Positions 4,110 through 55,866 of a stretch of DNA of 64,000 nucleotides are shown piece after piece. The stretch comes from Naegleria gruberi. Taxonomy: Eukaryota. Under the pieces are notes generated by a model. It was not told where the DNA came from and searched no databases. It saw nothing but the letters and a program-made list of their open reading frames with translations. The DNA lies in assembly GCA_000004985.1 (NCBI GenBank), contig GG738861.1; one strand, 5' to 3'. The position numbers and the translations under genes are program-made. The stretch's first letter is position 1. Each line of letters opens with the position of its first letter.

Positions 4110-6446
4110 TTATTCTTTGTTTTTGGTTTTGGATTTGTTTTTGGATTTCTTCTTTTTGGACTTTCGAAGACCTTTCTTTCTTTCTTTGAAAGTTTGATGA
4201 CATCCAGTACAAATATATCCACATTTGGATATTTCATCAAGGTGGAAAGAGTATTCGTGGAATACTGGTGGAGTGACTTCGTATTTGGTTGCCATGTCTG
4301 GAATTGGTAAACCACACGCAACACAACTACTTCCCATATCCTTTCTCACTTTTTCATTATCTCCTTCAGTAATTTCTGGAAGGCTCGTAAGTAGGGTGCT
4401 TTTCTTGTGTGAGTAGAGCTTGTCCAGCATTGCTGTATCATCACCAAATTCTATCAATACAGTAGATTCATCAATTCTGTTGGCCTTACATCCAGTAAGA
4501 TAGAATTTGGTTATATATTTGGAACCATACCAAGTAAATTCATCCGATTCTTTGGTAAGGAAAATGGTTTTAACAGCGTCATTGACAGCAATCCTTTCCA
4601 GTCTTCCATTTCTGAGAATTTTCAGTATAGATTTGGCAAATAATGAACGTTTCTTAAAGTAAATATTTACATGGACAGCTTTCAAGTCTACAGAACTCGT
4701 CACGATAAATGTTGGATTGGTAGTGAGAATAGACTCACCATCAATACAAAGCTCCACTGTTGTAAAACGTTCAAACTCTGATATTCCCATCAAATTGTAG
4801 TTGTGTTGATCAATTCTTGAACACTTTTTCAAATCGAACATGGCATTAAACTTTAAAATGAATATTTCAAAGTCTTGAATTGCATACATATCATAAGCTG
4901 CAATGTCTAGATTGATAGCATATTCTTTTTGCCATTCATCCAATATTCCAACATGATAATCGAAATTAGAGTCCAGGTTTTTGCCAATAGTAAGTGGTAC
5001 CTCACCTGTGGCATAAATTGACGAATTAATAATCATCTCAACACCAGTAATGAGAGCACTCAATCCATCCACAGTCCAATTTAAATTAAAGTCGAATGCA
5101 TCTATATCCTTGTATTGATCTTTAAAATAACACCTTCTTTCATCGAGAATATCTTGAATACTTTCTTTTTTCAATATTTCTCTGAACCTAGTTTCAAAGT
5201 ATTTACATCTAGTTACAGCTCCAGCGAAATGGACAGTTTTGATATTCTTTTGTACAATAATTAAACAAAGGGGAACCATCATTTGGTGAAGGGCTTCTTC
5301 AATTTCTTTCTCCAGAGGCACTAGTTCTTCAATTAATGAAGAACTGTTACTCTCAAATTGACTGGCAAGAATATCCAGTGTTTCTTCTCCGTATTTGGAT
5401 TGTATTACTTTGTGTACAATAGACATTCCTCCAACCTCACCATTTTTAAATGTAATCTCTGGTATTCCATCTTCTGTAAATTCTACAACACTGATATCTA
5501 GAGTTAAATGACCTACATCGATATAAAGTGTTGGTTCTTTCACAATATCAATCTGAGAATCGCAATAGTATTTCAAGAGTACAAATTCTTCAATCACATA
5601 CAAGTGCTCAAAATCTAGGTCAACCTCAAATGATGCAAGGGCCTTCATTAGACAATTTCTGTAAACTTTCTTAATATTTTCAGTGGTACCAGTTGGACAT
5701 GTTAATATGAAGGCACTAACATTTGACAATTCGCTCACTACTTTTCCATTGACTTGTGATTTTTTAGTTATACTTTTTGTCAGCAATTCTTTAATAAAGT
5801 GATATATTGCATTGCTGACAGTAACCTTCTCGTTGTTAACTTTAATCGCCAGAGCTTCTTGAACAAGAAATAATTTCTTAATATTCTCCAATTCCTTCCA
5901 TCCATCATTTTCTGGAGCTTTTTCAGCAACAAGAAACTTGGTACTACCCGAAGTTTTACAGAAAATCCTTGATGGATAAAATTGATGGGTGTCAAATTTC
6001 ATCTGTACTGATGTCACACTAGGTTTAGATTTCGAATTAATTACTTTAAACTTTGCTCCTTTAACAAAACTAGATCCAATATCAAGGGCAATAATTGTCT
6101 TTTCCAAATAATTTCTGTAATCAAAAAAATCATTCAGTGGTGGTTTATCTTCGGTATAGTCAAGAGAATTAGAATCAATTGTGATGGAGGTATTTAGTTT
6201 AACTTCCTCACAATAATCCGTTTGTACTTTCCTCTTTTTCCGAGTCTTTGATCGTTTACTAGTATTATTTGATTCACCATTATTTTCCTCTTCCTCATTA
6301 TTATTTGCATCCGCATTAATTCTATCATCAGTTGTTGATACCGATGAGGAAGCACTTGCTTTGGATGATGAACCCGAAAAGTCATCAGCACTTCCTTCTT
6401 CCAATACTTGTGATGATGAGGAAGCGCTTGCTCTCTTCTTTGGCAT
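4110..6446 (-). CDS. Hypothetical protein with actin/Hsp70/sugar-kinase (ASKHA)-like ATPase-fold motifs, N-terminal S/D/E-rich region with basic NLS-like stretch, C-terminal Cys/His-rich cluster (778 aa)
   Basis: Long intronless ORF from a true ATG. Phosphate-1-like motif ALDIGSSFVKGAKFKV and phosphate-2-like motif LYIDVGHLTLDISVVEF. KRSKTRKKRKV basic patch. C-terminal CVACG...CGYICTGCH cluster. Confidence 0.55.
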   Translation of the reverse strand: MPKKRASASSSSQVLEEGSADDFSGSSSKASASSSVSTTDDRINADANNNEEEENNGESNNTSKRSKTRKKRKVQTDYCEEVKLNTSITIDSNSLDYTEDKPPLNDFFDYRNYLEKTIIALDIGSSFVKGAKFKVINSKSKPSVTSVQMKFDTHQFYPSRIFCKTSGSTKFLVAEKAPENDGWKELENIKKLFLVQEALAIKVNNEKVTVSNAIYHFIKELLTKSITKKSQVNGKVVSELSNVSAFILTCPTGTTENIKKVYRNCLMKALASFEVDLDFEHLYVIEEFVLLKYYCDSQIDIVKEPTLYIDVGHLTLDISVVEFTEDGIPEITFKNGEVGGMSIVHKVIQSKYGEETLDILASQFESNSSSLIEELVPLEKEIEEALHQMMVPLCLIIVQKNIKTVHFAGAVTRCKYFETRFREILKKESIQDILDERRCYFKDQYKDIDAFDFNLNWTVDGLSALITGVEMIINSSIYATGEVPLTIGKNLDSNFDYHVGILDEWQKEYAINLDIAAYDMYAIQDFEIFILKFNAMFDLKKCSRIDQHNYNLMGISEFERFTTVELCIDGESILTTNPTFIVTSSVDLKAVHVNIYFKKRSLFAKSILKILRNGRLERIAVNDAVKTIFLTKESDEFTWYGSKYITKFYLTGCKANRIDESTVLIEFGDDTAMLDKLYSHKKSTLLTSLPEITEGDNEKVRKDMGSSCVACGLPIPDMATKYEVTPPVFHEYSFHLDEISKCGYICTGCHQTFKERKKGLRKSKKKKSKNKSKTKNKE

Positions 6447-6542: not shown

Positions 6543-8336
6543 TTATTTTCTCTTGAATAATCTGGACATGAGTGAGTTGCCAGTTCTTTGCTTACAAATA
6601 TCAGAGTAGTATTTACGGAATTGTTCATTTGATATAGAAGCCGATATTCTGTTAACATCACCAATTGCTGCAATACCTGGTTGTTTACCATTGTAGAATA
6701 ATTTGTCCATCATGGCAAGGATATCATTCTTTGAAACAGAATCAATCTTTTCTACAAGGTAATCAACTCCAAAGTATTTGTCATTCCACATTAAATCGTT
6801 AACAGCATTGAGAACCAATGTTGAGTTGTCTTCCAAACTGTGAAGGACTTGGGATTTGTATTGTTGCTTGGCTTGATCCAAGAGGGCATCGTCAATATAT
6901 TCAGGCATCTTGGCCAATAAAGTTAAGATTGCAACTGGGAGTTGACCTGGATTCAATTCTTCATGATTAAGACTTGCATGGAATGAGAAAATACCAGTAT
7001 CAGAATAGGCAAAATGTTGAGCAATCATATTGTGGAATTGATAGGCAGGTAAATAATGTCTATTAATTACAGAGTAAATACCCTTTCCTGGACCTCCACT
7101 TGAGAATGAATCACCTCCTCCCAAAAGTACTTCCAAAATATTTGCAACAAATAAATTATCGCTATCCTTGTATCCAATACCTTCAAATGAAACTGCATAT
7201 GATGTAGTTGGTGGAATATTTTGTAAATAGGCAGATTGTGGTCTTTCCAAAAATTCAGTCATGACTGAAGAAGGATTCCAAACTGGTTTGGCAAAAGCAA
7301 CTGGTTCAAAATTGTTAGAGAGGGCTCCTGGTGAGAAGTCCATATACTTTTTAACAAGGGATAACATCTTGTCGTGTTCAATACCAATCGATGAAATAGT
7401 ACACCTCTTAGGAACATAGAATCTATTGTAGAATTCATAGAGCATTTCAGGTGTAGCATCTTCCTTAATGGATACTGAAGGATTTCCGAGACCTCCTTCC
7501 GAGTTGGTTCCAAAGCATGACTTTAAAATGCAATCTGTCAATACATTAGAATTTGCAGGAATTGCCATTTCAGTTTCTAAATTGTATTTCAATAACTCGA
7601 TAGCATCATCGATATCTGATTGGTAAAACTTTGGATGTAACATTGTGTCAGAAAGGAATTCAAATGCCAATTCTACCTTATCCTTTGGACAAGTGATAAA
7701 GAAGGAATGGCTTTCGTATTCAGATGTTGATTCGTATAATACCTTATCTTCCAAATTTTCCTTCACATAATCTTCGGAAAACTTTCTACTGTGAGCGAAA
7801 GTTAATCTATTGATAATTGTTGAAATTCCTCTTTCTTCTGGTTTTTCATATCTTGGACCAGCTTTGAATGTGACGCAAATATTAACCAGATTAGAATGTT
7901 TAGAAAATGTTGAAACTCTGAGACCATTATCAAGGGATGAAATTTTCAAATCTTTAGCATTAAAGTGAATTCCAGGAACAACATATTCAAGAGAAACCTT
8001 ATCACTAAATAATGATTGTGTAAGATTTGGTAATTTTGGTTTAACATTATTAAATGATGGAGCATCTCCGAGAGTCAAAATTTCCTTGTTGTTTTTCTTT
8101 TTTAAAAGGTCCTTCAATTTTTGTCTATCAAGTTGAGAAGCAGTTTCAAGAACAGGATTTTCGGAATTAATACTACTCTCCTTCAACAATAAATTATTTG
8201 AAAAGGATCTAGTACAAGTAGAAGCGGATCCACTACTCAACAAATTTCCCGAAACTATTGGATTGGTGGCCTTGATAGCCGAGGCCTTTCTATTCAACAA
8301 TTGATGCACAAGAAAATTAGCTGCTGTCTTGTTCAT
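6543..8336 (-). CDS. PMPCA: Mitochondrial processing peptidase alpha subunit-like (M16 family, non-catalytic), 597 aa
   Basis: M16 fold with degenerate zinc motif (no HxxEH; NRLTFAHSRKFS). Characteristic MPP-alpha glycine-rich loop GGGDSFSSGGPGKGIYS. N-terminal presequence-like region. Confidence 0.7.
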   Translation of the reverse strand: MNKTAANFLVHQLLNRKASAIKATNPIVSGNLLSSGSASTCTRSFSNNLLLKESSINSENPVLETASQLDRQKLKDLLKKKNNKEILTLGDAPSFNNVKPKLPNLTQSLFSDKVSLEYVVPGIHFNAKDLKISSLDNGLRVSTFSKHSNLVNICVTFKAGPRYEKPEERGISTIINRLTFAHSRKFSEDYVKENLEDKVLYESTSEYESHSFFITCPKDKVELAFEFLSDTMLHPKFYQSDIDDAIELLKYNLETEMAIPANSNVLTDCILKSCFGTNSEGGLGNPSVSIKEDATPEMLYEFYNRFYVPKRCTISSIGIEHDKMLSLVKKYMDFSPGALSNNFEPVAFAKPVWNPSSVMTEFLERPQSAYLQNIPPTTSYAVSFEGIGYKDSDNLFVANILEVLLGGGDSFSSGGPGKGIYSVINRHYLPAYQFHNMIAQHFAYSDTGIFSFHASLNHEELNPGQLPVAILTLLAKMPEYIDDALLDQAKQQYKSQVLHSLEDNSTLVLNAVNDLMWNDKYFGVDYLVEKIDSVSKNDILAMMDKLFYNGKQPGIAAIGDVNRISASISNEQFRKYYSDICKQRTGNSLMSRLFKRK

Positions 8337-8944
8337 TTTTTTTATCGAGAATTTAAAAAAATTAACTAGATAAAAATTGATTTAATATTCAATTTCCATT
8401 GTCCTAGGTAATGAAGAAGTTGATTGAATTTAGATAATTTATTAATAACAGGTTGTGTGTTGGTAAAATATGCTAAAAGTACGACTATTTGGTATTTCTA
8501 CTCACTTCAGGATGTAATAATTATTAAAATTTGAATGAAGGAATTAAACAAATGAACCTCCGTCGAGAAAAAGTGCATTCATGATTATTCAAGACCTCTA
8601 TTTTAGTTCCTCAAAAATCCTCAGAGAATAAAAACCAAATTAATCAACTTGATGTTGGCAAAATTTCAAGGTTAGGAGGTGAGTGATTGCAGAGTAAAGA
8701 ACCTCTATTACATTTATTTACAATATCAAGAATTTGCACTACTGTTTCGAATGACAAATATGATTCAAGATCATCACAAACCAGCAAACAAACTATGATC
8801 TGAGGAAGGATTACAAAAACACTTGTGGAAATTATTATTTCTCATAATTAACACCCAATTCAAAAAAGTACAAATATTCAAACTCGACATTCCAATAAAC
8901 CTAGGTCAGCCAGACAGCAATTATTTGATCATTGTGAAAAAAAT
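8337..8944. promoter_or_regulatory. Divergent intergenic region between MPP-alpha (minus) and the PL7-like gene (plus); presumed bidirectional promoter
   Basis: 608-bp AT-rich spacer flanked by two outward-facing start codons. No specific motif identified. Confidence 0.3.
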
Positions 8945-9844
8945 ATGAACAAACAAAGTGTTGTCCTCACTTTTGCAGTTATCTGCCTATTCTTCATTCA
9001 TAACCTGAATGCAATTTGGCCTTCTCAAATTATTGACCTTCGCAACTGGAAATTAACACTTCCTGTTGGTGAGCCTGGAGATGCTATGGAAATTAAACAA
9101 CCAACCTTGGATAGATACTCTCTCAATCCATATTTTGGTGCCACTACTAATAACACTGGTGTAAGATTCAGAGTGCTCATGTCCAACGTAACCGTCACAA
9201 CTTCCTCTAATACCAAATATGCAAGAAGTGAATTGAGAGAAATGGATTCTTCAAATCCTAGTAGCACTAAGGCAGCTTGGAATACCACGGTTGGTACTCA
9301 TACCATGATTATCGATCAAACCATTACAAGATTACCAACCACTAGAAAGAAGGTTATTGCTGGTCAAGTCCACGATGCAGATGAATATGTTGTAACCATC
9401 CATTTGGAAGGAACCAAGCTCTATATCAATATCGTAGGAGTTGGAACCACAACCATTTCCCAAAATTATATTGTTGGCACAAGATTCCAAATCAAGATTC
9501 AAGTTAAGAATGGAGTCACAAGTATTTATTACAATAATATGAATACTCCTATTTATTCTATTACAAAGAGTTATAAGGGAGCCTACTTCAAGGCAGGTTG
9601 TTATGCTCAATCTAATTGCGAATTTGAGGGAAGTTTATGTGGAAAATCAAATAATTATGCTGAAGTTGTAATTCATAACTTGACCATTACGCATGAATAC
9701 CCAAGCGTTCAAGCAAGAAATGGAATTCTCAATGGATGGTTTGCAAATATGATTACAAGTGATGGTGTTAGTTTTGGAACCTCTGGTTTGATTCAATTGG
9801 TGTATTCATGTTTGTTGGTTTTCTTATTTGTTATTTTTGCCTAA
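8945..9844 (+). CDS. Secreted polysaccharide lyase family 7 (alginate lyase 2 domain)-like protein with N-terminal signal peptide and C-terminal hydrophobic (GPI-anchor-like) tail, 299 aa
   Basis: The three PL7 signature blocks occur in the right order and spacing: RSELREM, IAGQVHD (QIH block), YFKAGCYAQS (YFKAG-Y-Q block). Signal peptide MNKQSVVLTFAVICLFFIHNLNA. Terminal LVYSCLLVFLFVIFA. Confidence 0.65.
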   Translation: MNKQSVVLTFAVICLFFIHNLNAIWPSQIIDLRNWKLTLPVGEPGDAMEIKQPTLDRYSLNPYFGATTNNTGVRFRVLMSNVTVTTSSNTKYARSELREMDSSNPSSTKAAWNTTVGTHTMIIDQTITRLPTTRKKVIAGQVHDADEYVVTIHLEGTKLYINIVGVGTTTISQNYIVGTRFQIKIQVKNGVTSIYYNNMNTPIYSITKSYKGAYFKAGCYAQSNCEFEGSLCGKSNNYAEVVIHNLTITHEYPSVQARNGILNGWFANMITSDGVSFGTSGLIQLVYSCLLVFLFVIFA

Positions 9845-9973
9845 ATGTTAAGAAGAATGCAATTAACAAACATGCATTGTTTGAAATTGTCTTTAATTAA
9901 AATGAAGGATTTGTGTTAAAACTAAAGAATTCATTAATGTTAATCAATATTAAATTATTTAAAAATTAAAAAA

Positions 9974-25065: not shown

Positions 25066-25770
25066 ATGCAACAACATGTGGCATCAGCACCTAGAATTGT
25101 GATGGGCATATTCACAGTATTTGCTGGTGTTCTGTATGGCCACACCGGATTTGATGTTTTTATCAATGGATATAAATCTAAAAATTGGAAACAAACAATC
25201 GGAACTGTTGTTCAAGAGGAAGGTGAAACTTATAACCCATACGATCCGAACAAACTGATAGTGCCAACAATTCAATATAATGCCGATCAAAAGGTGTTAG
25301 ATCCAGATACCAATCAACAAGTAACAATTCATAGACAATTTATCAATAGAAATTATTCATATTCTTTTTTCGGATTATCGAGGAAAGATGTGAAGGAATT
25401 GAAATTGACCGATCACCTCATACCAAATACTAAAGTTAAACTTTTCTATGATCCACAAGATCCAAAGGAAAGTGTAGTAGTTCCAGGAATGTCATATGGT
25501 ACTTTACAAACAAGTGCTTTGGGAATTGGTTGCATACTTTCAGGATTGACTTTTGGATTGGCTAAGGAGGATATTTTGAGTTGGAGTGGATTAAGGAAAA
25601 ACAAATTGGCAGGTGGAATTTTTGGATTTTCAATGTTGCTAATGCTATCGAGTTTCTCAATTCCAGTATTTGTGAAACGACAAGTTTTTGAGGGTACTGA
25701 AGAAGAGAGAAAAGCTAGGTGGATAGATCCATACATTGTAAAGGCAGAAGAGACTTCCAGTAATAAGTAA
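25066..25770 (+). CDS. Hypothetical membrane protein (N-terminal TM plus C-terminal TM pair), 234 aa
   Basis: True ATG. Hydrophobic segments IVMGIFTVFAGVLYG, LGIGCILSGLTFGL, GGIFGFSMLLMLSSFSIPVFV. Confidence 0.45.
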   Translation: MQQHVASAPRIVMGIFTVFAGVLYGHTGFDVFINGYKSKNWKQTIGTVVQEEGETYNPYDPNKLIVPTIQYNADQKVLDPDTNQQVTIHRQFINRNYSYSFFGLSRKDVKELKLTDHLIPNTKVKLFYDPQDPKESVVVPGMSYGTLQTSALGIGCILSGLTFGLAKEDILSWSGLRKNKLAGGIFGFSMLLMLSSFSIPVFVKRQVFEGTEEERKARWIDPYIVKAEETSSNK

Positions 25771-32200: not shown

Positions 32201-35034
32201 ATGTCTACAAAGGACGAAAGTGAATCACCACAAATTTCTGAAGAAAATACAGCTTCACCGCAAGCAACAAACTCTACCTATCAGAGAAGAATAGAATCTC
32301 TTCATCAGGAGCACAATAACGGCATCAAAAACTACTTAATTACTTTGGATCCTGCCGAATATAAATGTTGGTCAACAGAGGAAATATGTGCATTGTTGGT
32401 GTCGAGCAAATGTTTAGTGCTAGAAGATGTGCAACCACTACTTCAAGCCAAATTTAGAGGGGGAAGTATTGATAACATTATAATCGATATAAAACAAAAA
32501 GCTGGAAACTTAGAAGCAATATACGAAATAGAGCATAGATCCTTCCCCTCTGTTCCAATAGACACCCTTAAAAGCGTCGTAAATTGGATCAACTTTAATC
32601 TGATTCCAAACCTGTATCACAAATGGAGTGTTGCCCAAGTGAAAGAACTTTTGTGTTCAAATGGTGGATTGAGCGAACAAGAGTACTTGCCATTATGTGA
32701 GATCTCAGGTCAAGACTTGGTGAAAATAGTTCCATATGTAATTGATTGTCAACATGTATATATTAGGGAAAAGAAAATAGAATTATCCCCAAAAGCTTGC
32801 AAGAGAATTATTAGTACCCAATTCCACACTTTCCCAATAGAAAATTTACTATTTCAGTATGACATTGCTGGTCAAGAAAATAGACTCCTAAGACTAAAGA
32901 AACTTGGAATTGTGTGCTACGACAAGAAAATGTTGGGTTGTGTTCATGATTTGCTGATACTCTTAGAAAAATTAGAAATTGCAATCCAAGAATATGAAAA
33001 AAGAAAAACAAGTTCAATATCTGTATTTAATGAGCAAATGGACAAGTTGGGTTTGAGCAAGTCAGATTCTTATATTTATTTATACCCTAAACTTGATTTT
33101 GAAGATGAAGATGAAGAAACCTCTTTTTCTTGCGAACACGTTGTGTGCTCATTTGCTCCAACATTTCCTTACAATAAGTATGAGGATAGAGAAACTTATT
33201 TAAAGAGAAGAAATGTATTGACATTTACAGAACCTCCAGGAACAGGAAAAACTCATTCTGCTTTTCACTTAACGAGTTGTGGGAGAATGGTAATTCCTGT
33301 ATCACCAAAGCATATTTCCAGATTATTTCAACAATTATCCTTTTGTGGTGATTCACGTTTTGATTTGGACAGAATCACCCAAAAATTCACAGAGTTTTAT
33401 CACAGATTGGGTTGTTTTTTGATCAAGTATGCTGAATTGTATGTAAGGGAGACTAATCCACTCTCTTCATCTTCCATAATGCAATATATTTTGAGATTCC
33501 TTTGGAGCGGTGGGGGAAACTGGATTGGTGAGCAAGATTTGAGACTTTTTCTTCTATTTTTCCTCAACCTCAGTATAATAGAACTGTTTGGATTTTAGAT
33601 GAGGTTCAATGTATTGATTATGAATGTGGTTTAAAGGTACCCCGTCGTGATGCTGAAAGTGGTGACGGTTCCTTGTTGACCTTACTAGTTTCTTGGCTGA
33701 GATTAAAGGGTGCAGTGGTGCTTACTACAACAAATTTCTCTGCAGTCAAAGGTAAAATTGAAAGATTAATTTCATCAGATACTGGAAAAGAGGTTTTGGA
33801 AAAGTGTTCATACGAATTCAAATTACTTCCACTGCTTAATCCAAAGCAAGTCATTGAGTTTTTGAGGTATTTCATTACGGTAGACTCAAGAAGATTGTGG
33901 GTTTATGTTTCCTTCTTTTTACAAGGCACAATAAGAAATGTTGAATCTTTCTTGCAGAAATTGTATTTTAAAGCAAGTGAAGAAAAAGCTGCAGGTTTAG
34001 GTGATGACTTTATATTGAGTGTTCTTCATTCTTTTTGTAGAGACAAGGTTTCACTTAAATTGAGTAGAAAGGAAGAAATGGGTTCAACATTTCCAAATTT
34101 TGAATACATATTTTACAAACTAGCAATAGCTGGGGAAGTTAATCTGCAAGAGTTAAATCTCACTGAAGAACAATGCGAACTAACCAAATTTTTAATTTGT
34201 AACGGAGTGAGCTTTATCTACATGCAAGAGTCTTATACATACAAGTTATCAAGTTGCCTTGAAAAAGGAAGAATGTTGAATTATGTATTTGACAAGTTTA
34301 CAAAGAAAAATTGGGTTGCAGAAATATTTACAATTTTAGTTAATAACAAGAATTCTACTTCCCAAGACATCTCATTGCTTGCAGAAGTATTTCTTGTAGA
34401 TATACTTATTAATCACTTTGGTTCATTAATTGCTCCACTTGTTAAAGGTTCATATGTCGACTCGTATGAATTACTGGCGAAGCACTATTTTGAAGATCCT
34501 CAATCATCTACCATCGATAAAGATAATGTTAAGATGTCTTCATTGATGATCGAATATCTTGCTGTCCAGACAAAGAGCAAGTATGACACAATCTGTCAAT
34601 TTTTGTCTCGCACAGGACAGTTTGCTGAAATTGACATACTGGGAATATTGTCAACAAAAGATAGCAAAAATTGTTTACCAAGCGCTATTCCACTAACTGT
34701 AGCCATTTCCAGAAGTAACGACAACCAGTCCAAGAAATTGAAAAAAGACTTTGCCAGTTCAATGTACAGAAATAACTCGACCAAAAGGAAGAGTGTAAGA
34801 ATGTTATTTCATCCTAATTGCTCATATTCAAAGAGTTTAAATGACAGAATTACTGAGGGAACGTTTAATAATGAAACAGAGAAGGTAACAATCAAACAGG
34901 TCCTTACAGACTATTCTGTAATTACTGGAGATGATCAGTGTGTTATTGAGATTAGTTCTGGAATTGAAAAACAATGGCCTGAATGGAAACCATTTATGGA
35001 CAGTTGGAGAAAGCTTTTTGTTGAGAATCAATAA
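32201..35034 (+). CDS. Tandem SAM-like domains + P-loop NTPase + large alpha-helical C-terminal region, 2 exons approx 32201..33527 and 33599..35034 (~920 aa). Novel signalling NTPase candidate
   Basis: Track ORFs 32201..33598 and 33673..35034 join by a GTGAGC...GATTTTAG intron (33528..33598, 71 nt, phase 1). The first ORF's tail (LFLLFFLNLSIIELFGF*) is intron read-through and the second ORF has no ATG. SAM-like segments WSTEEICALLVSS...LEDVQPLL and WSVAQVKELLCSNGGLSEQEYLPLCEISGQDLVKIV. Walker A TFTEPPGTGKTHSAF. hhhTTN sensor-like AVVLTTTN after the junction. Confidence 0.6.
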
Positions 35035-38774: not shown

Positions 38775-39962
38775 TTATTTATTCTTCTTTTCTTCAAAGG
38801 TTTCTTCCAAAGAGGAGGATTCTGTATTATTATTGAAATCATCGTCATCATCCTTTTCCCTATGGAAATATAAACGCTTATTTCGATTACTTGAATTGGA
38901 AGTCTTTTTAGTTGGGGTTGAATTCTTACTGCTAGTTTTTGTCATTCCATATCCACTTTCTGAGGCAATACCCTCGAGAACACTGATTGTAAGATTGAGA
39001 TCATTCTCTTGTTTTTCCAAACTTTCTTGAATTTCAATATCTTCCTCCAAATGTTCAGGTCTTTGTAAATGAGGTGGTAAAATCATTATTGAGGAGGGAA
39101 AATATTCCCTTCTCTTTTCATCAATACATTCATCCATAATTTGTACATCAGTATCGTCCACACTTGATAATTCATTTTCTCCCATTGAAGAATAAAAGGA
39201 GAGAGTTTTCATTGAGGATTCATTATTTTCATGATCCTCTTCGAGATGTTCTTGTTGTGTCGAGTTAAAATCGTTGGGTGTTGATTTTTGATAATCCTCC
39301 ATAATGGATGGTGGAATGGTGCTGCTGTTGGTGGTATTGTTGGAATCTTGATCCTCGTAGGCCTCTGGATTTTCACCTTCTGATGATTGTTGATCCTCTG
39401 CACCATTACTCATTTTCATTGCTGTTGGTGAGATAGTATCCAAATGGTATTGTGAAAATTCATGTTGTTGATAGTGTTGATTTGACAATTTGATCAATTT
39501 CAATGTATTCGGATTGAATTGAATATGAAATAAATATAAAGACATATTCAGACCATAGATATAATCACTGGCAAAATGTCTCTTTTGCTGAGTGAAAAAG
39601 TGCATAATCAGAAACAAGACAATCAAGAAAAAGGCAACTGCCGATATCAAATTACTCTCATATTGTTCCTGCTCAAGTTTAGCCTTTTCCAAATCTTTTG
39701 CTGTTGTACCACTCGGTTGAAATCTAACACAATTTTCGTGCCTTGTCGGAGATGATTTTGGCTTGGCTTGTTGCTGCTGATGATGACTTGAAGGATACTC
39801 GAATAGGCTATTGTTGTCATTATTGACTGAATTATTATTTGGTATTATTACATTGGTGCTATTGGTATTGGTGCTGTTATTGTGGATGAGAGAAGTGGGA
39901 CTCTCCACAATCTTGTATTTGTAATAATAAAAAGTGAAAAATCCTAGAATGAACAGTATCAA
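38775..39962 (-). CDS. Hypothetical low-complexity (N/S/Q/E-rich) membrane protein. Track start is a TTG, so the true 5' end is unresolved
   Basis: 395-codon open frame with two hydrophobic segments (LFILGFFTFYYY, AVAFFLIVLFLIMHFF) and long polar low-complexity tracts. No in-frame ATG at the start of the ORF. Confidence 0.35.
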   Translation of the reverse strand: MILFILGFFTFYYYKYKIVESPTSLIHNNSTNTNSTNVIIPNNNSVNNDNNSLFEYPSSHHQQQQAKPKSSPTRHENCVRFQPSGTTAKDLEKAKLEQEQYESNLISAVAFFLIVLFLIMHFFTQQKRHFASDYIYGLNMSLYLFHIQFNPNTLKLIKLSNQHYQQHEFSQYHLDTISPTAMKMSNGAEDQQSSEGENPEAYEDQDSNNTTNSSTIPPSIMEDYQKSTPNDFNSTQQEHLEEDHENNESSMKTLSFYSSMGENELSSVDDTDVQIMDECIDEKRREYFPSSIMILPPHLQRPEHLEEDIEIQESLEKQENDLNLTISVLEGIASESGYGMTKTSSKNSTPTKKTSNSSNRNKRLYFHREKDDDDDFNNNTESSSLEETFEEKKNK

Positions 39963-44123: not shown

Positions 44124-46260
44124 ATGAAGAACAACATGACGATGAAAACAACATCTTCCCAGCAGCTTTCAAAAAATCAAAACTTTCTCCAACAGAGTAA
44201 TCCGCTATTTTTAAAAAAGATAGAATATTTAAAAATGCCCTCTTGTACAGCAGGCAACAACAGCTTGAGCTGCAACAGTAGTACAACAACAACCACGAAC
44301 GAAGCCTCACCTCGACAACACAATGTGATACCTTCAGCAAACTATAATAGTAGTAGGTCCAAGTTGACTATTGTTTCCTCTCTCACACAACAATTAACTC
44401 TTCCATTGAATGGTATTATTGGAAATATTTCGAATAATGGGCATAATGAACACGATGGAGTGAATAAGGAACATTCTCAAACAAAAACAACAACTACAAC
44501 AGTGAACAATACTTCTAATAATAATAATAATAATAATCAACATTCAATTGTTGATGATCATCAACAAAATAATCAACCACAACAACCGAAGGAACATCAA
44601 AATAGAGATTTTACAAAATTAGGACTAAGAATATCAATGGACAAAGTTAATGGATGTGATAATGCTGCCGATGATGAGGTTGCCAATGTAAATAGTTTTA
44701 AACAAAGCCATGTAATTCCGATTGGACAATCGGATAATGATTCGAAATTTTTTGGATCACCATCACAATCACTCTTTGTCTACTCTGATTCTACTGTTTG
44801 TGAGTCGTACAGTAAGAGATTATTGAGTATTAAATCACCTAGATATGGATCGGATTTTAAAATTACAGAGGAGGGAATCAAAATCAAGGGAATGAGTGTA
44901 TTGGAGTATAGAAAGTTTTGCCAACCAGAATCAGTTTCAGTTCCAGTTGGCGATAATAATGTTGTTTCCTCATCGACTACGGTAGCAACATCTCCTTCCG
45001 TTAATTTTCCTCTCAATTTCAATGTATATAGTGTTGATGAGTTTCACAACTTTCCAATGAAAGGTAAGTGTTAAAAGTAGTACCAAATATATTGAAAATT
45101 ACAAATATGGATAGAGCTTGGAAATGGTTCATTTGGAAGTGTATATAGAGTAGCAATTGCTAATCCAAAAACCAATGAAAAACTCTTTTTTGCAGAGAAG
45201 CGAGTAACAGACACCTCGCAAAAACAATTGGATTTAATATTTAAGGAGGTGAAGACTATTTTCGAGTGTGATTCACCTTACCTTGTTAAGTTACACGAAT
45301 GTTTCTACAAGGAATGTACATATTATAGTAAGTTGAAGTTAATTATTTGAATTTGTTACCAATTATTAAAAAAGTGTAAGTATTTAAAGTTCTAATCTCA
45401 AATATAATATATAATAGGATTATGGATTTCATGTCACTAGGATCCCTCCACAAAATGTATACAAATTACAAGAAATATCTAGCTCAAGTAGAAAAGAAGA
45501 ACTACTCAATGCCAGAGCCTGTAATTAGTGTTATTATCAGTAAGACATTGAAAGGTTTGATTTATTTGCATGTTAAAAAACATATCATTCACAGAGATTT
45601 GGTAAGCTTCAATTTTCTTTAACATGTTTACATTTAAAATAATTAAGAAACCAGCAAATATATTAATTGATGACAAGGGATATGTCAAAATTTCAGATTT
45701 TGGACTTGTTGGAATTAAAGAAGGAAGTGAATATTCTAAAAAGTCCCACGACACAGCTCTTACTATATGGGATACATTTACAGGATCTGTTACTTATATG
45801 AGTCCAGAAAGATTGAATAATGAATGTATGTATAATGTTTCATTTACTAATTTTTAATATTATATAGCTTACAGTTATAACAGTGACATTTGGTCAATTG
45901 GTATTATTACAGTGGAACTTTTCCTTGGACAGTAAGTTTTTCAAATGAATTTATTCCAACCACTTTTCTAGTCATCCACTTTCGAATGAGAACTTTTTCA
46001 GTTTGGGATCCATGACAAGGGAGGAAATTCATGATCAATGCATTAAAAAAATTAGGGATGCTGGTGCTAGCGAAGATTTGTGCTCCTTCATTGATACATG
46101 CTTATTGAAATATAAGGATTTAGGTGAGAGACCTGATATTAATGGTATCATTCTTAAACATCCCTTCATTAAGAATCATGAACAGTTCCAATTTAGAAAT
46201 TGGATAAAGAATGAATACATTTCCAAGTTGTACCAAAAATCTTCCCAAAATAAGAATTAA
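44124..46260 (+). CDS. MAP kinase kinase (MEK/STE7)-like protein kinase with N/S/T-rich N-terminal region, ~6 exons (approx 44124..45063, 45115..45327/45331, 45418..45600, 45648..45826, 45875..45931, 45985..46260)
   Basis: Kinase motifs are spread over successive exons: ELGNGSFGSVYRV (Gly loop), AEKRV (VAIK), HVKKHIIHRDLKPANILID, SDFGLVG, GSVTYMSPERL (MAP2K-type activation segment), YSYNSDIWSIG. Exons are linked by GTAAGT/GTATGT...YAG introns. First ATG at 44124 (alternatively 44235). Confidence 0.7.
44517..44538 (+). repeat. (AAT)7 trinucleotide microsatellite encoding a poly-Asn tract within the MEK-like gene's N-terminal low-complexity region
   Basis: Sequence ataataataataataataat at ~44517-44538. 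Translated as NNNNNNN in ORF 44103..45074. Confidence 0.7.
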
Positions 46261-53922: not shown

Positions 53923-55866
53923 ATGTTTTCTAGTTTCGGAAATTCAGGGGAAGGTATTTCATTTGATGATTTCTTTGGATTTTCAGAGGATACATCATCA
54001 ACAGCAGCAACATCATCTACTCTGAATGTTGTTGTTCAGCAACAATCTGTCGCAGCTTCAATTGTTAATACGAATGAGAAGAAACAAGCTCAACCTTTGT
54101 TGCCTAAAAACAAGACACTTACTCATCAGCAACAACAGCAGCCATCTGTTGCTACTATGCCAAAGAAACCAGCAAAGGAAGTCATCGGTAGCAGTGAGGA
54201 AGAATCATCTTCCGATGATGATGAGGAAATGAAGGATAAGGTACAGCCTGGTGATGATTCCGATGAAGATGAAGAAATGAAAGAGAAGGAATATTCTTCT
54301 TCCTCCTCGAGTAGTGAGAGTAGCCAAGATGAGATTGAGGATATATCAATTCGGAAATCAACAAATATTGGAAAGCAAATTGTAAATGGTAATAAGGAGA
54401 ATCATAAACAATCAGTGAATACTGTGAAAAAAGCTCCTCCAAAGCAATCTAATATTCAACACATTTTGAATAAGGTGCCATCATCATCTAGTTCAGTACC
54501 GCAAATTGGAACGAAAAAGAAATTGTCACCACTCAAAGAAAAGAGAAATATCAAGGAAAAGACCGATAATTCAAAAAGAAAATTTATTCAAACCAAACTG
54601 GATAAGAGCATGTTTGAAAGGAGAGTTGAGCAGACACCTATGGATTCATCACTCTTTTGCATGTGCTGCAATACATTTGTTGCCTTAACAGGTGCATCAT
54701 CTCAAAACTCAGCAAAAAGAGTAAAGAAAGGTTCTTCTAAATATGAAGAATGGGATAAACATATAGAAAGTGAGGACCACTTGTTGAGGAAGGAGAGGCT
54801 GCAAAGACTCAATGTACTTTGCTTTATGAATAGCCCAACAAATAAGAGGTTTCATCATTTTGTAAATTCATTCTGTCTAATGTTTTTCCACCGAATTGAA
54901 ACACTAGCTATTGAATTTGCAAAAAAGAATAGAAAGAGAAAGTTTGAAATTTATGAGGAACATGAGGATTATATTCTGTTGGACTATGTCATTAATTTTA
55001 TTTATGCTCGAGTTGCAAATTTGCAATACGCAACCGATTTTGAAAAGATTTTGAAACAATTCTTAAATAATATGAGACAAGGCTCATTAAAGATTGCCAC
55101 CACAATTTGGGAACAATATAAGGAATTTTATTCCAAGATGAATGATGATGAGTTTGGTTATTTGCTCTCTGATATTGTACATCGAGCTTGGGATTGCATG
55201 AGACATTTGGCTTACTTTGGGAAAATTCAGGATCCAACTCAATTATTCATTGACGAGCCATTGGAATTCAAAGATTTTAAGAGTGAGAAAAAAGAATCAA
55301 GAGATGAAAGTGATTCTAGCTCCGATGATGAAGACTATGAAGAGCCAGAATATGACGAAGATGAGGAAGAGGAGGAGGACATTTTCAATGGTCAGCATCC
55401 TTACTTTGAAATGTTTATGAAAATGTACATTCAACACTTCTTATTTTTAAAGCCAATTGAGAAAATAATAAGTGAAGCTCTCGAACAATACAAATCCATT
55501 CTAGAAAAGGAGACCTTTTTCAATGAGTGGGAAGAAGAAATAGTGAAGAGAAAGAAGCTATTAATTTCACAGCAACAGATGTCAAGTAATGGCGGTAGTG
55601 CTGTAGATGATGAATCAAGTGATGAGAGTCCAACAATACCTCCACCAAAACCACAAGCTCCAAAGCAAAAATCAATTGAAGATTTGCTGTTTGGTTCAGC
55701 AGCCAACAATACCTTTGAGAGCTTCTTTTCTGTTAATACTACACCTCAAAAGGTAACAACTACAATCCAAACTCAAAGTAAGAAGAAGGCAGGAATATCA
55801 ACGCACGAGAATGAAACAATGGAAGAGGATGAAATGTGGAATTTACTAAGAAGAGATAATATTTGA
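53923..55866 (+). CDS. Hypothetical acidic/S-rich protein (track ORF starts at TTG 53908; first ATG 53923), ~647 aa
   Basis: Long open frame. Acidic serine clusters (SSEEESSSDDDEEMKD, DESDSSSDDEDYEEPEYDEDEEEEED). A central ~250-aa region of ordinary composition with no recognised domain. Confidence 0.45.
   Translation: MFSSFGNSGEGISFDDFFGFSEDTSSTAATSSTLNVVVQQQSVAASIVNTNEKKQAQPLLPKNKTLTHQQQQQPSVATMPKKPAKEVIGSSEEESSSDDDEEMKDKVQPGDDSDEDEEMKEKEYSSSSSSSESSQDEIEDISIRKSTNIGKQIVNGNKENHKQSVNTVKKAPPKQSNIQHILNKVPSSSSSVPQIGTKKKLSPLKEKRNIKEKTDNSKRKFIQTKLDKSMFERRVEQTPMDSSLFCMCCNTFVALTGASSQNSAKRVKKGSSKYEEWDKHIESEDHLLRKERLQRLNVLCFMNSPTNKRFHHFVNSFCLMFFHRIETLAIEFAKKNRKRKFEIYEEHEDYILLDYVINFIYARVANLQYATDFEKILKQFLNNMRQGSLKIATTIWEQYKEFYSKMNDDEFGYLLSDIVHRAWDCMRHLAYFGKIQDPTQLFIDEPLEFKDFKSEKKESRDESDSSSDDEDYEEPEYDEDEEEEEDIFNGQHPYFEMFMKMYIQHFLFLKPIEKIISEALEQYKSILEKETFFNEWEEEIVKRKKLLISQQQMSSNGGSAVDDESSDESPTIPPPKPQAPKQKSIEDLLFGSAANNTFESFFSVNTTPQKVTTTIQTQSKKKAGISTHENETMEEDEMWNLLRRDNI

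What the first reader, a model, noticed from the sequence alone, without database searches (positions are those of the whole stretch)
8945..9844. PL7 alginate-lyase-like secreted protein in a eukaryote: probable horizontally acquired polysaccharide lyase
The ORF carries the three canonical PL7 blocks (RSELREM, QVH in IAGQVHD, YFKAGCYAQS) in correct order and spacing for the beta-jelly-roll. It also has a eukaryotic-style signal peptide and a C-terminal hydrophobic tail consistent with GPI anchoring. PL7 is overwhelmingly bacterial, with sporadic eukaryotic occurrences. A surface-anchored copy suggests degradation of bacterial or algal uronate polysaccharides, for example biofilm or prey cell walls.
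Basis: partly seen in the sequence, partly recalled or inferred. Interest (0 to 1): 0.65.

Follow-up and report, generated by a model that had tools for sequence, protein, structure and literature searches.

The report
Bacterial-type alginate lyase in Naegleria
The amoeba Naegleria gruberi carries an intact, long-resident gene for a bacterial-type enzyme that cuts alginate-like slime polysaccharides, refitted with eukaryotic export and probable membrane-anchor signals; it is a sound but unsurprising case of gene capture from bacteria by a bacteria-eating protist.

Summary
ORF 8945-9844(+) encodes a 299-aa protein identical to Naegleria gruberi NAEGRDRAFT_66146 (D2VBA4, "predicted protein").

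- **Family:** full-length PL7 lyase domain (Pfam PF08787, E=6e-37). It is 40-50% identical to bacterial ALY-1 and AlgAT5. All three motif blocks and the catalytic Arg/Gln/His/Tyr are intact. The AlphaFold model superposes on 1uai/5zqi at 1.6-1.7 Å.
- **Residence:** it lies among ordinary eukaryotic genes, with host-typical GC and codon usage. dN/dS is 0.14 against an environmental orthologue.
- **Origin:** four Naegleria-type sequences form one clade (bootstrap 0.995, two exclusive insertions). That clade sits inside a radiation whose characterised or context-checked members are bacterial. The donor is unresolved. N. fowleri, N. lovaniensis, Willaertia and Acrasis proteomes gave no hit. Fungal PL7s are far more distant. 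Horizontal acquisition followed by duplication is well supported.
- **Anchor:** every full-length clade member has a signal peptide, the PL7 domain, a disordered linker and a C-terminal hydrophobic segment. In three of four it ends exactly at the C-terminus, with a small-residue S-D-G site about 9 residues upstream here. This fits a GPI signal but is not proven.
- **Function:** action on bacterial uronate exopolysaccharide during grazing is inferred only.

Verdict: a new member of a known kind, of moderate interest.

The parts
8945..9844 (+). Complete intronless ORF, 299 aa plus TAA stop. It is N. gruberi NAEGRDRAFT_66146 / XP_002678504.1 / UniProt D2VBA4.
8945..9013 (+). Predicted ER signal peptide, aa 1-23 (MNKQ / SVVLTFAVICLFFI / HNLNA). 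Cleavage is inferred after NLNA. The homology to mature bacterial enzymes starts at aa 23-25.
   Evidence: Hydropathy; alignment start; helix 3-20 in the model. No SignalP-type predictor was available.
9014..9700 (+). PL7 catalytic domain with beta-jelly-roll fold, aa 24-252.
   Evidence: Pfam; PDB sequence matches; AF2 pLDDT above 95 over most of the domain; Foldseek 1uai TM 0.93 at 1.7 Å and 5zqi TM 0.95 at 1.6 Å.
9224..9244 (+). Motif block A, RSELREM (aa 94-100), with catalytic-site Arg94. The preceding residue is Ala93, where 90% or more of homologues have Pro.
9365..9373 (+). Motif block B, Q141-V-H143. These are the Gln and His of the PL7 active site and align with QIH of A1-II' (His191).
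   Evidence: PDB titles naming the H191N/Y284F mutants
9584..9613 (+). Motif block C, YFKAGCYAQS (aa 214-223), with the catalytic Tyr214. It aligns with YFKAG of A1-II' (Tyr284).
9617..9640 (+). Cys225...Cys232 pair in the loop NCEFEGSLCG. It is conserved with ALY-1 (NCSNSSPCS) and most homologues, so a disulfide is probable.
   Evidence: disulfide inferred
9701..9787 (+). Polar linker, aa 253-281, largely disordered and absent from bacterial homologues. It contains the candidate GPI omega site S272-D273-G274 (nt 9758-9766), 9-10 residues before the hydrophobic tail.
   Evidence: pLDDT below 50 for aa 261-278; sequence inspection; alignment
9788..9841 (+). C-terminal hydrophobic tail LIQLVYSCLLVFLFVIFA (aa 282-299), running to the last residue with no cytosolic residues after it. 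It is a candidate GPI-attachment signal; the alternative is a C-terminal membrane anchor.
   Evidence: Hydropathy; helix 280-298; equivalent tails in the orthologue P0002 and in paralogues P0289 and P0004
8337..8944 (.). 608-bp AT-rich intergenic region shared with the divergently transcribed mitochondrial-processing-peptidase gene (6543-8336, minus strand). It is the presumed promoter and 5' UTR region.
   Evidence: ORF map; Pfam of the neighbour; promoter function inferred, not tested

Best explanation
This is a functional nuclear gene of Naegleria gruberi for a family-7 polysaccharide lyase (PL7) of the ALY-1/AlgAT5 type.

**Origin.** An ancestor of the N. gruberi lineage took the catalytic domain from a bacterium. 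The gene then duplicated into at least three paralogues on different scaffolds. It was refitted for the eukaryotic secretory pathway with an N-terminal ER signal peptide, N-glycosylation sequons, a disordered linker and a C-terminal hydrophobic signal.

**Proposed mechanism.**
1. The protein enters the ER.
2. The C-terminal tail is most likely exchanged for a GPI anchor at about S272-D273-G274.
3. The enzyme is then displayed on the outer face of the plasma membrane. That face becomes the inner face of food cups and phagosomes.
4. There it cleaves polyuronates endolytically by beta-elimination, using the Arg94/Gln141/His143/Tyr214 site. The most likely substrate is alginate of Pseudomonas or Azotobacter-type capsules and biofilm matrix.
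5. This loosens the matrix and uncoats prey bacteria.

**Shown here:** family membership, an intact active site and fold, chromosomal integration, purifying selection, bacterial affinity with a patchy eukaryotic distribution, and conservation of the signal-plus-tail architecture.

**Inferred only:** GPI attachment, surface location, substrate and ecological role.
For: - **Family and fold.** Pfam PF08787 gives E=6e-37 over the full length. PDB sequence matches are 3e-48 and 1e-46. R94, E96, R98, Q141, H143, F215, G218 and Y220 are invariant, and Y214, K216 and Q222 are conserved in at least 90% of 100 homologues. The AF2 model has pLDDT 88.7 and superposes on 1uai/5zqi with TM 0.93-0.95. There are no large loop insertions relative to ALY-1 or AlgAT5.
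- **Residence in the host genome.** The neighbours are M16 peptidase, IleRS, OSBP, RFC1, MUS81, eIF3g and kinesin. GC is 0.363 and GC3 0.310, within the neighbours' range. The codon-usage likelihood gives z=-0.15, rank 12 of 22.
- **Selection.** dN/dS is 0.14 over the domain against orthologue L001, with dS about 1.3.
- **Horizontal origin.** The Naegleria clade has bootstrap 0.995 and two exclusive 2-aa insertions. It is sister to all other sequences in 1.5% of bootstraps. The nearest relatives examined lie in bacterial gene contexts. N. fowleri, N. lovaniensis and Willaertia are absent from the PL7 hits although their orthologues of the neighbouring gene are in the same database.
- **Anchor.** The hydrophobic tail ends at the C-terminus in P0001, P0002 and P0289, and lies near the C-terminus in P0004. 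The tail sequence diverges (40% identity, dN/dS 0.58) while its hydrophobicity is retained, as expected for a targeting signal.
- **Precedents.** An alginate lyase of Acanthamoeba has been proposed to open biofilms (PMC7641382 and PMC10761080, citing Anderson et al. 2005). A PL7 acquired by HGT and then expanded is described in the diatom Nitzschia sing1, including a family with C-terminal transmembrane domains (PMC11960938).
Against: - No enzymatic, expression or localisation data exist for this protein, and no paper mentioning it was found.
- No GPI or signal-peptide predictor could be run. Paralogue P0004 has 9 polar residues after its hydrophobic segment, which suits a transmembrane anchor as well.
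- The highly conserved Pro before RSELREM is Ala here.
- No uronate-catabolism genes lie in the 64-kb window. A nutritional pathway is therefore not evident, which is why a matrix-clearing role is preferred.
- The tree is neighbour-joining only, with an unsupported backbone, so the donor and the number of transfers into Heterolobosea are unresolved.
Confidence: 0.7

Rival explanations
1. The catalytic domain is the same, but the C-terminal hydrophobic segment is a permanent single-pass membrane anchor, or a propeptide that is removed, rather than a GPI signal. The enzyme would then be an integral type-I surface or lysosomal membrane protein, or would be shed.
For: AF2 models aa 280-298 as a helix 19 residues long. 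Paralogue P0004 has a 21-residue hydrophobic segment followed by 9 polar residues. Nitzschia sing1 PL7 proteins of the A(n)-TMD family carry C-terminal transmembrane domains (PMC11960938).
Against: In P0001, P0002 and P0289 the hydrophobic run ends at the very last residue, with no charged cytosolic stop-transfer residues. In P0289 the run is only about 12-14 residues, which is short for a bilayer span. Small residues (S-D-G here, N-D/S in P0002, N-S-S in P0289) sit about 8-10 residues upstream, as in GPI signals.
Confidence: 0.22
2. It is an active PL7 lyase, but its natural substrate is not alginate. Candidates are another polyuronate such as beta-1,4-glucuronan or other glucuronate- or mannuronate-containing bacterial, fungal or algal exopolysaccharides, or an endogenous Naegleria glycan such as cyst-wall or surface-coat material.
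For: PL7 includes glucuronan lyases (7nde, Trichoderma parareesei PL7A). The orthologues differ at the Q(I/V)H position, QVH here against QIH in P0002. The three paralogues are only 45-56% identical to one another, which would allow substrate divergence.
Against: The closest characterised enzymes by a wide margin are ALY-1, deposited as a polyguluronate lyase, and the alginate lyase AlgAT5 (E about 1e-47, rmsd 1.6-1.7 Å). The glucuronan lyase is far more distant (E=1e-6, 23% identity). No uronate polymer of Naegleria itself is known to me; that statement is from memory and was not tested.
Confidence: 0.25
3. The PL7 gene is bacterial contamination or a mis-assembly in the N. gruberi genome, not a Naegleria gene.
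For: The closest non-heterolobosean homologues that could be identified are bacterial. The gene has no introns.
Against: The gene lies inside a 507-kb scaffold. It is 608 bp from a mitochondrial processing peptidase gene and 129 bp from an IleRS gene, both eukaryotic. Its codon usage and GC are indistinguishable from the neighbours'. It has a eukaryotic-style signal peptide and a C-terminal tail that no bacterial homologue has. There are three paralogues on three scaffolds and an independent environmental orthologue with the same architecture.
Confidence: 0.01
4. The gene was inherited vertically from an ancient eukaryotic PL7 family and later lost in most eukaryotes.
For: A second heterolobosean of unknown species (JGI sample 3300062347, loci L005 and L006) also carries two PL7 genes of the same subfamily, 47-48% identical.
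Against: Among the top 120 hits, only N. gruberi sequences come from EukProt. Fungal PL7s are much more distant than bacterial ones. N. fowleri, N. lovaniensis, Willaertia and Acrasis gave no hit. The six heterolobosean sequences group together in only 2% of bootstraps, and P0007/P0020 lack the Naegleria-specific insertions.
Confidence: 0.03
5. It is a catalytically dead, lectin-like surface protein that only binds uronate polymers, for example as a prey-recognition receptor.
For: The location is inferred to be the cell surface. In Nitzschia, membrane-anchored PL7 repeats with substituted catalytic residues are proposed to be receptors (PMC11960938). A near-invariant Pro is replaced by Ala next to motif A.
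Against: All catalytic residues (R94, Q141, H143, Y214) and the surrounding invariant positions are intact in all four clade members. dN/dS is 0.14.
Confidence: 0.04

Closest known systems
ALY-1 polyguluronate lyase of Corynebacterium sp. (PDB 1uai) and AlgAT5 of Defluviitalea phaphyphila (PDB 5zqi). From memory, not tested here, these belong to CAZy subfamily PL7_3.
   Same: Single-domain beta-jelly roll of about 225 aa, 40-50% identical by sequence. The motifs RSELREM, Q(I/V)H and YFKAG-Y-Q are the same, and the Cys pair after motif C is shared with ALY-1 (AlgAT5 lacks it). The model superposes at 1.6-1.7 Å.
   Different: The host is a eukaryote. The protein has a eukaryote-style signal peptide, four N-X-S/T sequons, two 2-residue insertions specific to the Naegleria clade, a 29-aa disordered linker and an 18-aa C-terminal hydrophobic tail. 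Activity has not been measured.
[quoted passage not shown]
   Same: A bacterial PL7 gene was acquired by a eukaryote through HGT and then duplicated. The products are secreted through an ER signal peptide, and some members are membrane-anchored at the C-terminus.
   Different: The diatom genes come from marine Vibrio-like donors with CBM32 and number 91 copies that support growth on brown-algal alginate. Naegleria has 3 copies, no CBM, an unresolved donor whose closest named relatives are mostly uncultured (CPR, Bdellovibrionales), and a soil and freshwater bacterivorous lifestyle.
Fungal PL7 enzymes: Paradendryphiella salina PL7A/PL7C alginate lyases and Trichoderma parareesei PL7A glucuronan lyase
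   Same: They are eukaryotic, secreted PL7 beta-jelly rolls.
   Different: They are only 15-23% identical, with TM 0.69-0.80. This is a different branch of the family, so it does not share a eukaryotic origin with the Naegleria gene.
Acanthamoeba castellanii predicted alginate lyase (Anderson et al. 2005, Protist, as cited in PMC7641382 and PMC10761080)
   Same: The idea is the same: a free-living bacterivorous amoeba carries a bacterial-type alginate lyase proposed to give access to bacteria inside alginate biofilms. It is also uncharacterised.
   Different: No protein named as Acanthamoeba is among the top 120 relatives of the Naegleria protein. It is therefore not a close homologue, and it may belong to a different family. 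I could not retrieve its sequence.

Membership tests
Polysaccharide lyase family 7 (Pfam PF08787 Alginate_lyase2) | Profile-HMM match above the curated gathering threshold, covering the whole domain | tested here: met
   E=6.1e-37, 128 bits against a cutoff of 29.7; profile positions 1-225 of 225; aa 30-250
Polysaccharide lyase family 7 (Pfam PF08787 Alginate_lyase2) | Three conserved blocks, RXE(L/V)R, Q(I/V)H and YFKXGXYXQ, in this order (definition as in PMC11960938) | tested here: met
   RSELR at aa 94-98, QVH at 141-143 and YFKAGCYAQ at 214-222
Polysaccharide lyase family 7 (Pfam PF08787 Alginate_lyase2) | Catalytic Arg, Gln, His and Tyr equivalent to those of A1-II' (His191 and Tyr284 are the residues mutated in PDB 2zaa) | tested here: met
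   The pairwise HMMER alignment to 2cws aligns RSELREM, QVH/QIH and YFKAG. R94, Q141 and H143 are invariant and Y214 is conserved in at least 90% of 100 homologues.
Polysaccharide lyase family 7 (Pfam PF08787 Alginate_lyase2) | Beta-jelly-roll fold | tested here: met
   The AF2 model has pLDDT 88.7 and is all-beta over aa 35-251. The top 43 Foldseek PDB hits are all PL7 structures, the best with TM 0.93-0.95.
Polysaccharide lyase family 7 (Pfam PF08787 Alginate_lyase2) | Beta-eliminative cleavage of alginate or another polyuronate | not testable with these tools
   Needs recombinant enzyme and an A235 or NMR product assay
CAZy subfamily PL7_3 (ALY-1 type) | Assignment by dbCAN or CAZy subfamily HMM, or by phylogeny with curated members | not tested
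   No subfamily models were available. ALY-1 and AlgAT5 are the closest solved structures. The subfamily label is from memory.
GPI-anchored surface protein | N-terminal ER signal peptide | tested here: met
   The test was heuristic only: n-region MNKQ, a 14-residue hydrophobic core, and Ala at position -1. The homology to mature enzymes starts right after it. SignalP was not available.
GPI-anchored surface protein | C-terminal signal: small omega, omega+1 and omega+2 residues, a polar spacer of about 6-10 residues, and a hydrophobic run of about 12-20 residues ending at the C-terminus | tested here: met
   S272-D273-G274, spacer VSFGTSG, and L282-A299 running to the last residue. Equivalent layouts are found in P0002 and P0289. 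P0004 deviates, with 9 polar residues after the run.
GPI-anchored surface protein | Positive call by a trained predictor (big-PI, PredGPI, NetGPI) | not tested
   No such tool was available
GPI-anchored surface protein | Actual lipid attachment (PI-PLC release, mass spectrometry) and GPI-transamidase genes in the host | not testable with these tools
   Only indirect support was found. GPI transamidase is described as conserved among eukaryotes (abstract of PMC9098846), and the Naegleria pangenome paper reports evidence of GPI-anchored proteins (PMC9928731).
Bacterium-to-eukaryote horizontal gene transfer | The gene is physically integrated among host genes and has host composition | tested here: met
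Bacterium-to-eukaryote horizontal gene transfer | Closest relatives are bacterial, and the distribution among eukaryotes and close relatives of the host is patchy | tested here: met
   database-coverage controls
Bacterium-to-eukaryote horizontal gene transfer | Phylogeny nests the eukaryotic clade within bacterial sequences with statistical support, and identifies the donor | tested here: inconclusive
   The analysis used NJ with 200 bootstraps. The Naegleria clade has support 0.995. It lies inside the 265-sequence ingroup at support 1.00 and is sister to all the others in only 1.5% of replicates. No particular sister exceeds 27.5%. ML software was not available.

The most novel reading that the evidence does not exclude
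Naegleria of the gruberi lineage keeps a small family of GPI-anchored alginate lyases of bacterial origin on its feeding surface and in its phagosomes. They serve as a dedicated tool to strip the alginate capsule or biofilm matrix from Pseudomonas and Azotobacter-type prey. The family would have been captured from an uncultured bacterium, possibly of the CPR/Microgenomates type, whose members give several of the best-scoring named hits. It would then have been lost, or never gained, in the thermophilic N. fowleri/N. lovaniensis lineage. A second heterolobosean acquired secreted versions separately, which would make PL7 capture a recurrent adaptation of amoeboid grazers.
Probability: 0.3. Interest if true: 0.55.

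Novelty: new member of a known kind. Interest (0 to 1): 0.36.

Why it matters
If the enzyme is active and surface-anchored, it gives a concrete, testable molecular handle on how bacterivorous amoebae penetrate alginate-protected biofilms. That question bears on protist grazing, on the persistence of pathogens in water systems, and on anti-biofilm enzymes. It is also a clean example of how a bacterial secreted enzyme is 'eukaryotised' by gaining a signal peptide, glycosylation sites and an anchor signal, followed by duplication. It adds Heterolobosea to the short list of eukaryotes with bacterial-type PL7 lyases (fungi and one diatom). It does not reveal a new kind of system.

Tried and rejected
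- **Other copies in the window.** tblastn of the protein against the window found only the gene itself.
- **Viral route.** A scan of IMG/VR found 31 PL7 loci, none more than 42% identical and none closer than the bacterial sequences. This gives no support for a virus as vector.
- **Donor identification.** The NJ backbone is unsupported. The best recurrent sister, P0142, appears in 27.5% of bootstraps and lies in a bacterial contig with UvrB and Maf. Cluster look-ups for 10 nearest relatives gave no taxon names.
- **A single heterolobosean acquisition.** Monophyly of the 4 Naegleria sequences with the 2 sequences from loci L005/L006 appears in 2% of bootstraps. A shared-rare-residue count ranks P0007 only third, with five shared residues, and P0020 lower still. 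The Naegleria insertions are absent from P0007 and P0020. This is left unresolved, leaning towards independent events.
- **Literature.** Searches for Naegleria with 'alginate lyase' or 'polysaccharide lyase', for the accession numbers, and in the supplements of the Naegleria pangenome paper found nothing about this protein. The N. gruberi genome paper is not held.
- **GPI machinery.** The search was uninformative.
- **Paralogue loci.** The DNA for P0004 and P0013 could not be fetched.
- **GC or codon anomaly.** None was found. This argues for an old transfer and says nothing against HGT.
- **The QVH/QIH rule of thumb.** I did not use it for M- versus G-specificity, because the orthologue has QIH.
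Full report
**1. What is at the coordinates**

The + strand carries one uninterrupted ORF from ATG 8945 to TAA 9842-9844, encoding 299 aa. The protein is 100% identical to the Naegleria gruberi 'predicted protein' EFC45760.1 / XP_002678504.1 / NAEGRDRAFT_66146 / UniProt D2VBA4, on a 507-kb scaffold. The window is therefore N. gruberi nuclear DNA, with GC around 0.34 throughout.

- RSELREM at aa 94-100.
- IAGQVHD at aa 138-144.
- YFKAGCYAQS at aa 214-223.

**2. Family membership**

- Pfam PF08787 (Alginate_lyase2) matches at E=6.1e-37 and 128 bits (cutoff 29.7) across the entire profile.
- Among solved structures, the best sequence matches are AlgAT5 (5zqi, 3e-48) and the polyguluronate lyase ALY-1 (1uai, 1e-46). 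A1-II' follows at 5e-14, PA1167 at 6e-9, and the fungal glucuronan lyase 7nde at only 1e-6.
- In an alignment of 100 homologues, R94, E96, R98, Q141, H143, F215, G218 and Y220 are invariant. Y214, K216 and Q222 are conserved in at least 90%.
- The HMMER alignment to A1-II' puts these residues on the catalytic blocks of that enzyme. Its His191 and Tyr284 are the residues mutated in the PDB substrate complexes listed.
- An AlphaFold2 model built on that alignment has mean pLDDT 88.7, above 95 over most of aa 30-250, and is all-beta.
- Foldseek against the PDB returns 1uai (TM 0.93, 1.7 Å) and 5zqi (TM 0.95, 1.6 Å) first. The top 43 hits are all PL7 structures. The fungal PL7s reach only TM 0.69-0.80 at 15-23% identity.
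- There are no large loop insertions relative to ALY-1 and AlgAT5 of the kind reported to turn PL7 enzymes exolytic (PMC11960938). An endolytic mode is therefore inferred.

**3. It is a resident, selected eukaryotic gene**

- The flanking ORFs are a mitochondrial-processing-peptidase-like M16 protein, 608 bp upstream on the opposite strand, and an isoleucyl-tRNA synthetase 129 bp downstream.
- Further out lie an oxysterol-binding protein, RCC1-kinase, RFC1, MUS81, eIF3g, a DEAD-box helicase, an apyrase and a kinesin.
- The gene's GC (0.363) and GC3 (0.310) fall within the neighbours' range.
- The per-codon likelihood of its synonymous codon usage under the pooled usage of the other 21 long ORFs gives z=-0.15, rank 12 of 22. 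Bacterial homologues with higher GC score far lower.
- A 1186-bp metagenomic contig (L001, GC 0.34) encodes an orthologue, P0002, that is 63-67% identical overall and 72% identical in the domain.
- Nei-Gojobori dN/dS against that orthologue is 0.14 over the domain, with dS about 1.3. The catalytic domain has therefore been under purifying selection for a long time.

**4. Origin**

*The search results.*
- An exhaustive HMMER search of 1.84 billion cluster representatives finds 275 proteins at E<=1e-30. Only two representatives, P0002 and P0004, score well above the rest, at 417 and 292 bits. The next scores 229 bits at about 50% identity.
- N. gruberi has three paralogues on three scaffolds: P0001, P0004 (NAEGRDRAFT_68135) and P0013 (NAEGRDRAFT_71919).
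- All named relatives beyond these are bacterial. They include Candidatus Levy-, Roizman- and Gottesmanbacteria, Bdellovibrionales, Sanguibacter, Streptomyces, Kribbella, Polyangiales and Defluviitalea.
- Two unnamed close relatives, P0142 and P0123, lie in plainly bacterial gene neighbourhoods with UvrB, Maf and PadR. There the domain is fused to CBM-type modules. Many of the other closest relatives carry long Pro/Thr-rich stretches N-terminal to the lyase domain.

*The tree.* I built a neighbour-joining tree of 271 PL7 domains over 214 columns, with Kimura distances and 200 bootstraps. It was rooted with A1-II' residues transcribed.
- The four Naegleria-type sequences form a clade at 0.995.
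- They lie inside the 265-sequence ingroup at 1.00.
- They are sister to all the other ingroup sequences in only 1.5% of replicates.
- No particular sister is supported; the best is P0142 at 27.5%.
- Two 2-residue insertions, before RSELREM and after REM, occur in exactly these four sequences and in no other of the 271.

*Database control.* For the neighbouring M16 peptidase, the same protein database returns N. lovaniensis (72%), N. fowleri (71%) and Willaertia magna (54%) orthologues. Acrasis kona is present in the database too. None of these species appears among the PL7 hits.

*Conclusion on origin.* Together this supports one bacterium-to-Naegleria transfer followed by duplication. The (P0001, P0002) pairing at 0.735 suggests the duplications predate the split from the L001 organism. 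The gene was then either lost in, or acquired after the divergence of, the N. fowleri/N. lovaniensis lineage. IMG/VR viral contigs hold only phage-type PL7s at 42% identity or less, so a viral vector is not indicated.

**5. A second heterolobosean**

- Two other close hits, P0007 and P0020, are 47-48% identical to the query. They form a pair at bootstrap 0.97 and come from one JGI sample, on contigs of 12.6 and 147.5 kb with GC 0.35-0.36.
- Those contigs carry kinases and Kelch, F-box-like, TPR, RRM and metacaspase genes.
- The PAQR/AdipoR-type gene next to P0007 has Willaertia magna (48%) and Acrasis kona (45%) as its best named hits. The organism is therefore another heterolobosean.
- Its PL7 proteins have a short signal peptide, no C-terminal extension, and bacterial-type loop lengths.
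- They join the Naegleria clade in only 2% of bootstraps.
- Whether Heterolobosea acquired PL7 once or twice is unresolved. I lean towards two events.

**6. Eukaryotic refitting and the anchor**

*N-terminus.* Aa 1-23 form a typical signal peptide: MNKQ, a 14-residue hydrophobic core, then HNLNA. Homology to mature bacterial enzymes begins immediately after it.

*C-terminus.*
- Bacterial homologues end at ...VTH. The Naegleria protein continues with a 29-aa polar linker, of which aa 261-278 have pLDDT below 50.
- The linker is followed by an 18-aa hydrophobic run, L282-A299, that reaches the last residue.
- The triad S272-D273-G274 lies 9-10 residues before this run. This is the layout of a GPI attachment signal according to general knowledge of such signals.

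*Conservation of the layout.*
- The same layout is present in orthologue P0002.
- It is also present in P0289, the full-length version of the third paralogue. The NCBI model of that paralogue, P0013, is truncated.
- P0004 has a long Asn/Ser/Thr-rich, sequon-dense stalk, then a 21-residue hydrophobic segment followed by 9 polar residues.
- Between P0001 and P0002 the tail is only 40% identical (dN/dS 0.58) but remains hydrophobic, as expected for a targeting signal.

I could not run a GPI or signal-peptide predictor. The GPI assignment is therefore an inference, at about 0.6. A plain C-terminal membrane anchor is the main rival.

**7. Function**

*Shown:* an intact PL7 active site in a secretory-pathway protein under purifying selection.

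*Inferred:*
- Endolytic beta-elimination of a polyuronate, most likely alginate, because the closest characterised enzymes are alginate or polyG lyases.
- Display on the cell surface, and hence on the lumenal face of food cups and phagosomes.
- Loosening of the alginate capsule or biofilm matrix of prey bacteria.

No uronate-catabolic genes lie in the window. For that reason I favour a matrix-clearing role over a nutritional one. The same idea was proposed for an uncharacterised Acanthamoeba alginate lyase (PMC7641382 and PMC10761080, citing Anderson et al. 2005). The QVH/QIH 'specificity' motif differs between the orthologues, so it should not be over-read.

**8. Novelty and verdict**

The protein is in public databases as an uncharacterised 'predicted protein'. 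I found no paper that discusses it, and the N. gruberi genome paper itself could not be read.

HGT-derived PL7 lyases are already described in fungi and in the diatom Nitzschia sing1, including membrane-anchored forms (PMC11960938; PMC6710412 appears among the results). An alginate lyase as an amoebal biofilm tool is an existing hypothesis.

This is therefore a new member of a known kind. The modestly new features are the conserved GPI-like tail and the occurrence in Heterolobosea. The anchor type, the substrate and the ecological role remain to be tested.

Noticed in passing
N. gruberi paralogue NAEGRDRAFT_71919 (P0013, not in the window) compared with P0289: The NCBI model, at 247 aa, ends abnormally (...TDTSFVEIVYGNI). 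A protein from another assembly that is at least 90% identical, P0289 at 291 aa, continues with ...DNYAEVQIYNVSTTH, a linker and a C-terminal hydrophobic tail. The reference gene model therefore looks truncated or mis-spliced at its 3' end.
   Followed up: partly
L005 10001-10720 and L006 5930-6661 (JGI sample 3300062347): Two PL7 paralogues, each with a short signal peptide and no anchor tail, lie on contigs of an unidentified heterolobosean. A neighbouring PAQR gene is 48% identical to Willaertia magna and 45% to Acrasis kona. This may be an independent PL7 acquisition.
   Followed up: partly
L006 11432-12607 (minus strand): The same heterolobosean contig encodes a 391-aa protein with a weak Peptidase_M23 hit, a family of peptidoglycan endopeptidases. 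It may be another bacterial-type prey-degrading enzyme acquired by transfer.
   Followed up: no
window 6543-8336 (minus strand): The 597-aa M16 / MPP-alpha-like ORF next to the PL7 gene has 71-72% identical orthologues in N. fowleri and N. lovaniensis. The only 100% match returned is a 403-aa fragment from ENA. The full-length N. gruberi reference protein did not appear, which suggests the annotated model differs from the simple ORF.
   Followed up: no
window 9845-9973 and 8337-8944: Spacing is very compact. Only 129 bp separate the PL7 stop codon from the IleRS start codon. A 608-bp AT-rich divergent intergenic region is shared with the M16 peptidase gene.
   Followed up: no
window 4110-6446(-), 25066-25770(+), 32201-33598(+), 34078-35034(+), 38775-39605(-), 44124-45074(+), 53923-55866(+), 55895-57184(-): Eight long ORFs of 234-778 aa have no Pfam match at E<=1e-5. 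They are presumably lineage-specific Naegleria genes or exons of mis-delimited genes.
   Followed up: no
L002 (Candidatus Gottesmanbacteria); P0005 and P0018 (Levy- and Roizmanbacteria); L039 (a 917-kb contig): Several of the closest named relatives of the Naegleria PL7 are from CPR/Microgenomates bacteria, at 45-50% identity. That is unexpected for organisms with such small genomes, and it hints at the donor pool. It is not statistically supported.
   Followed up: partly
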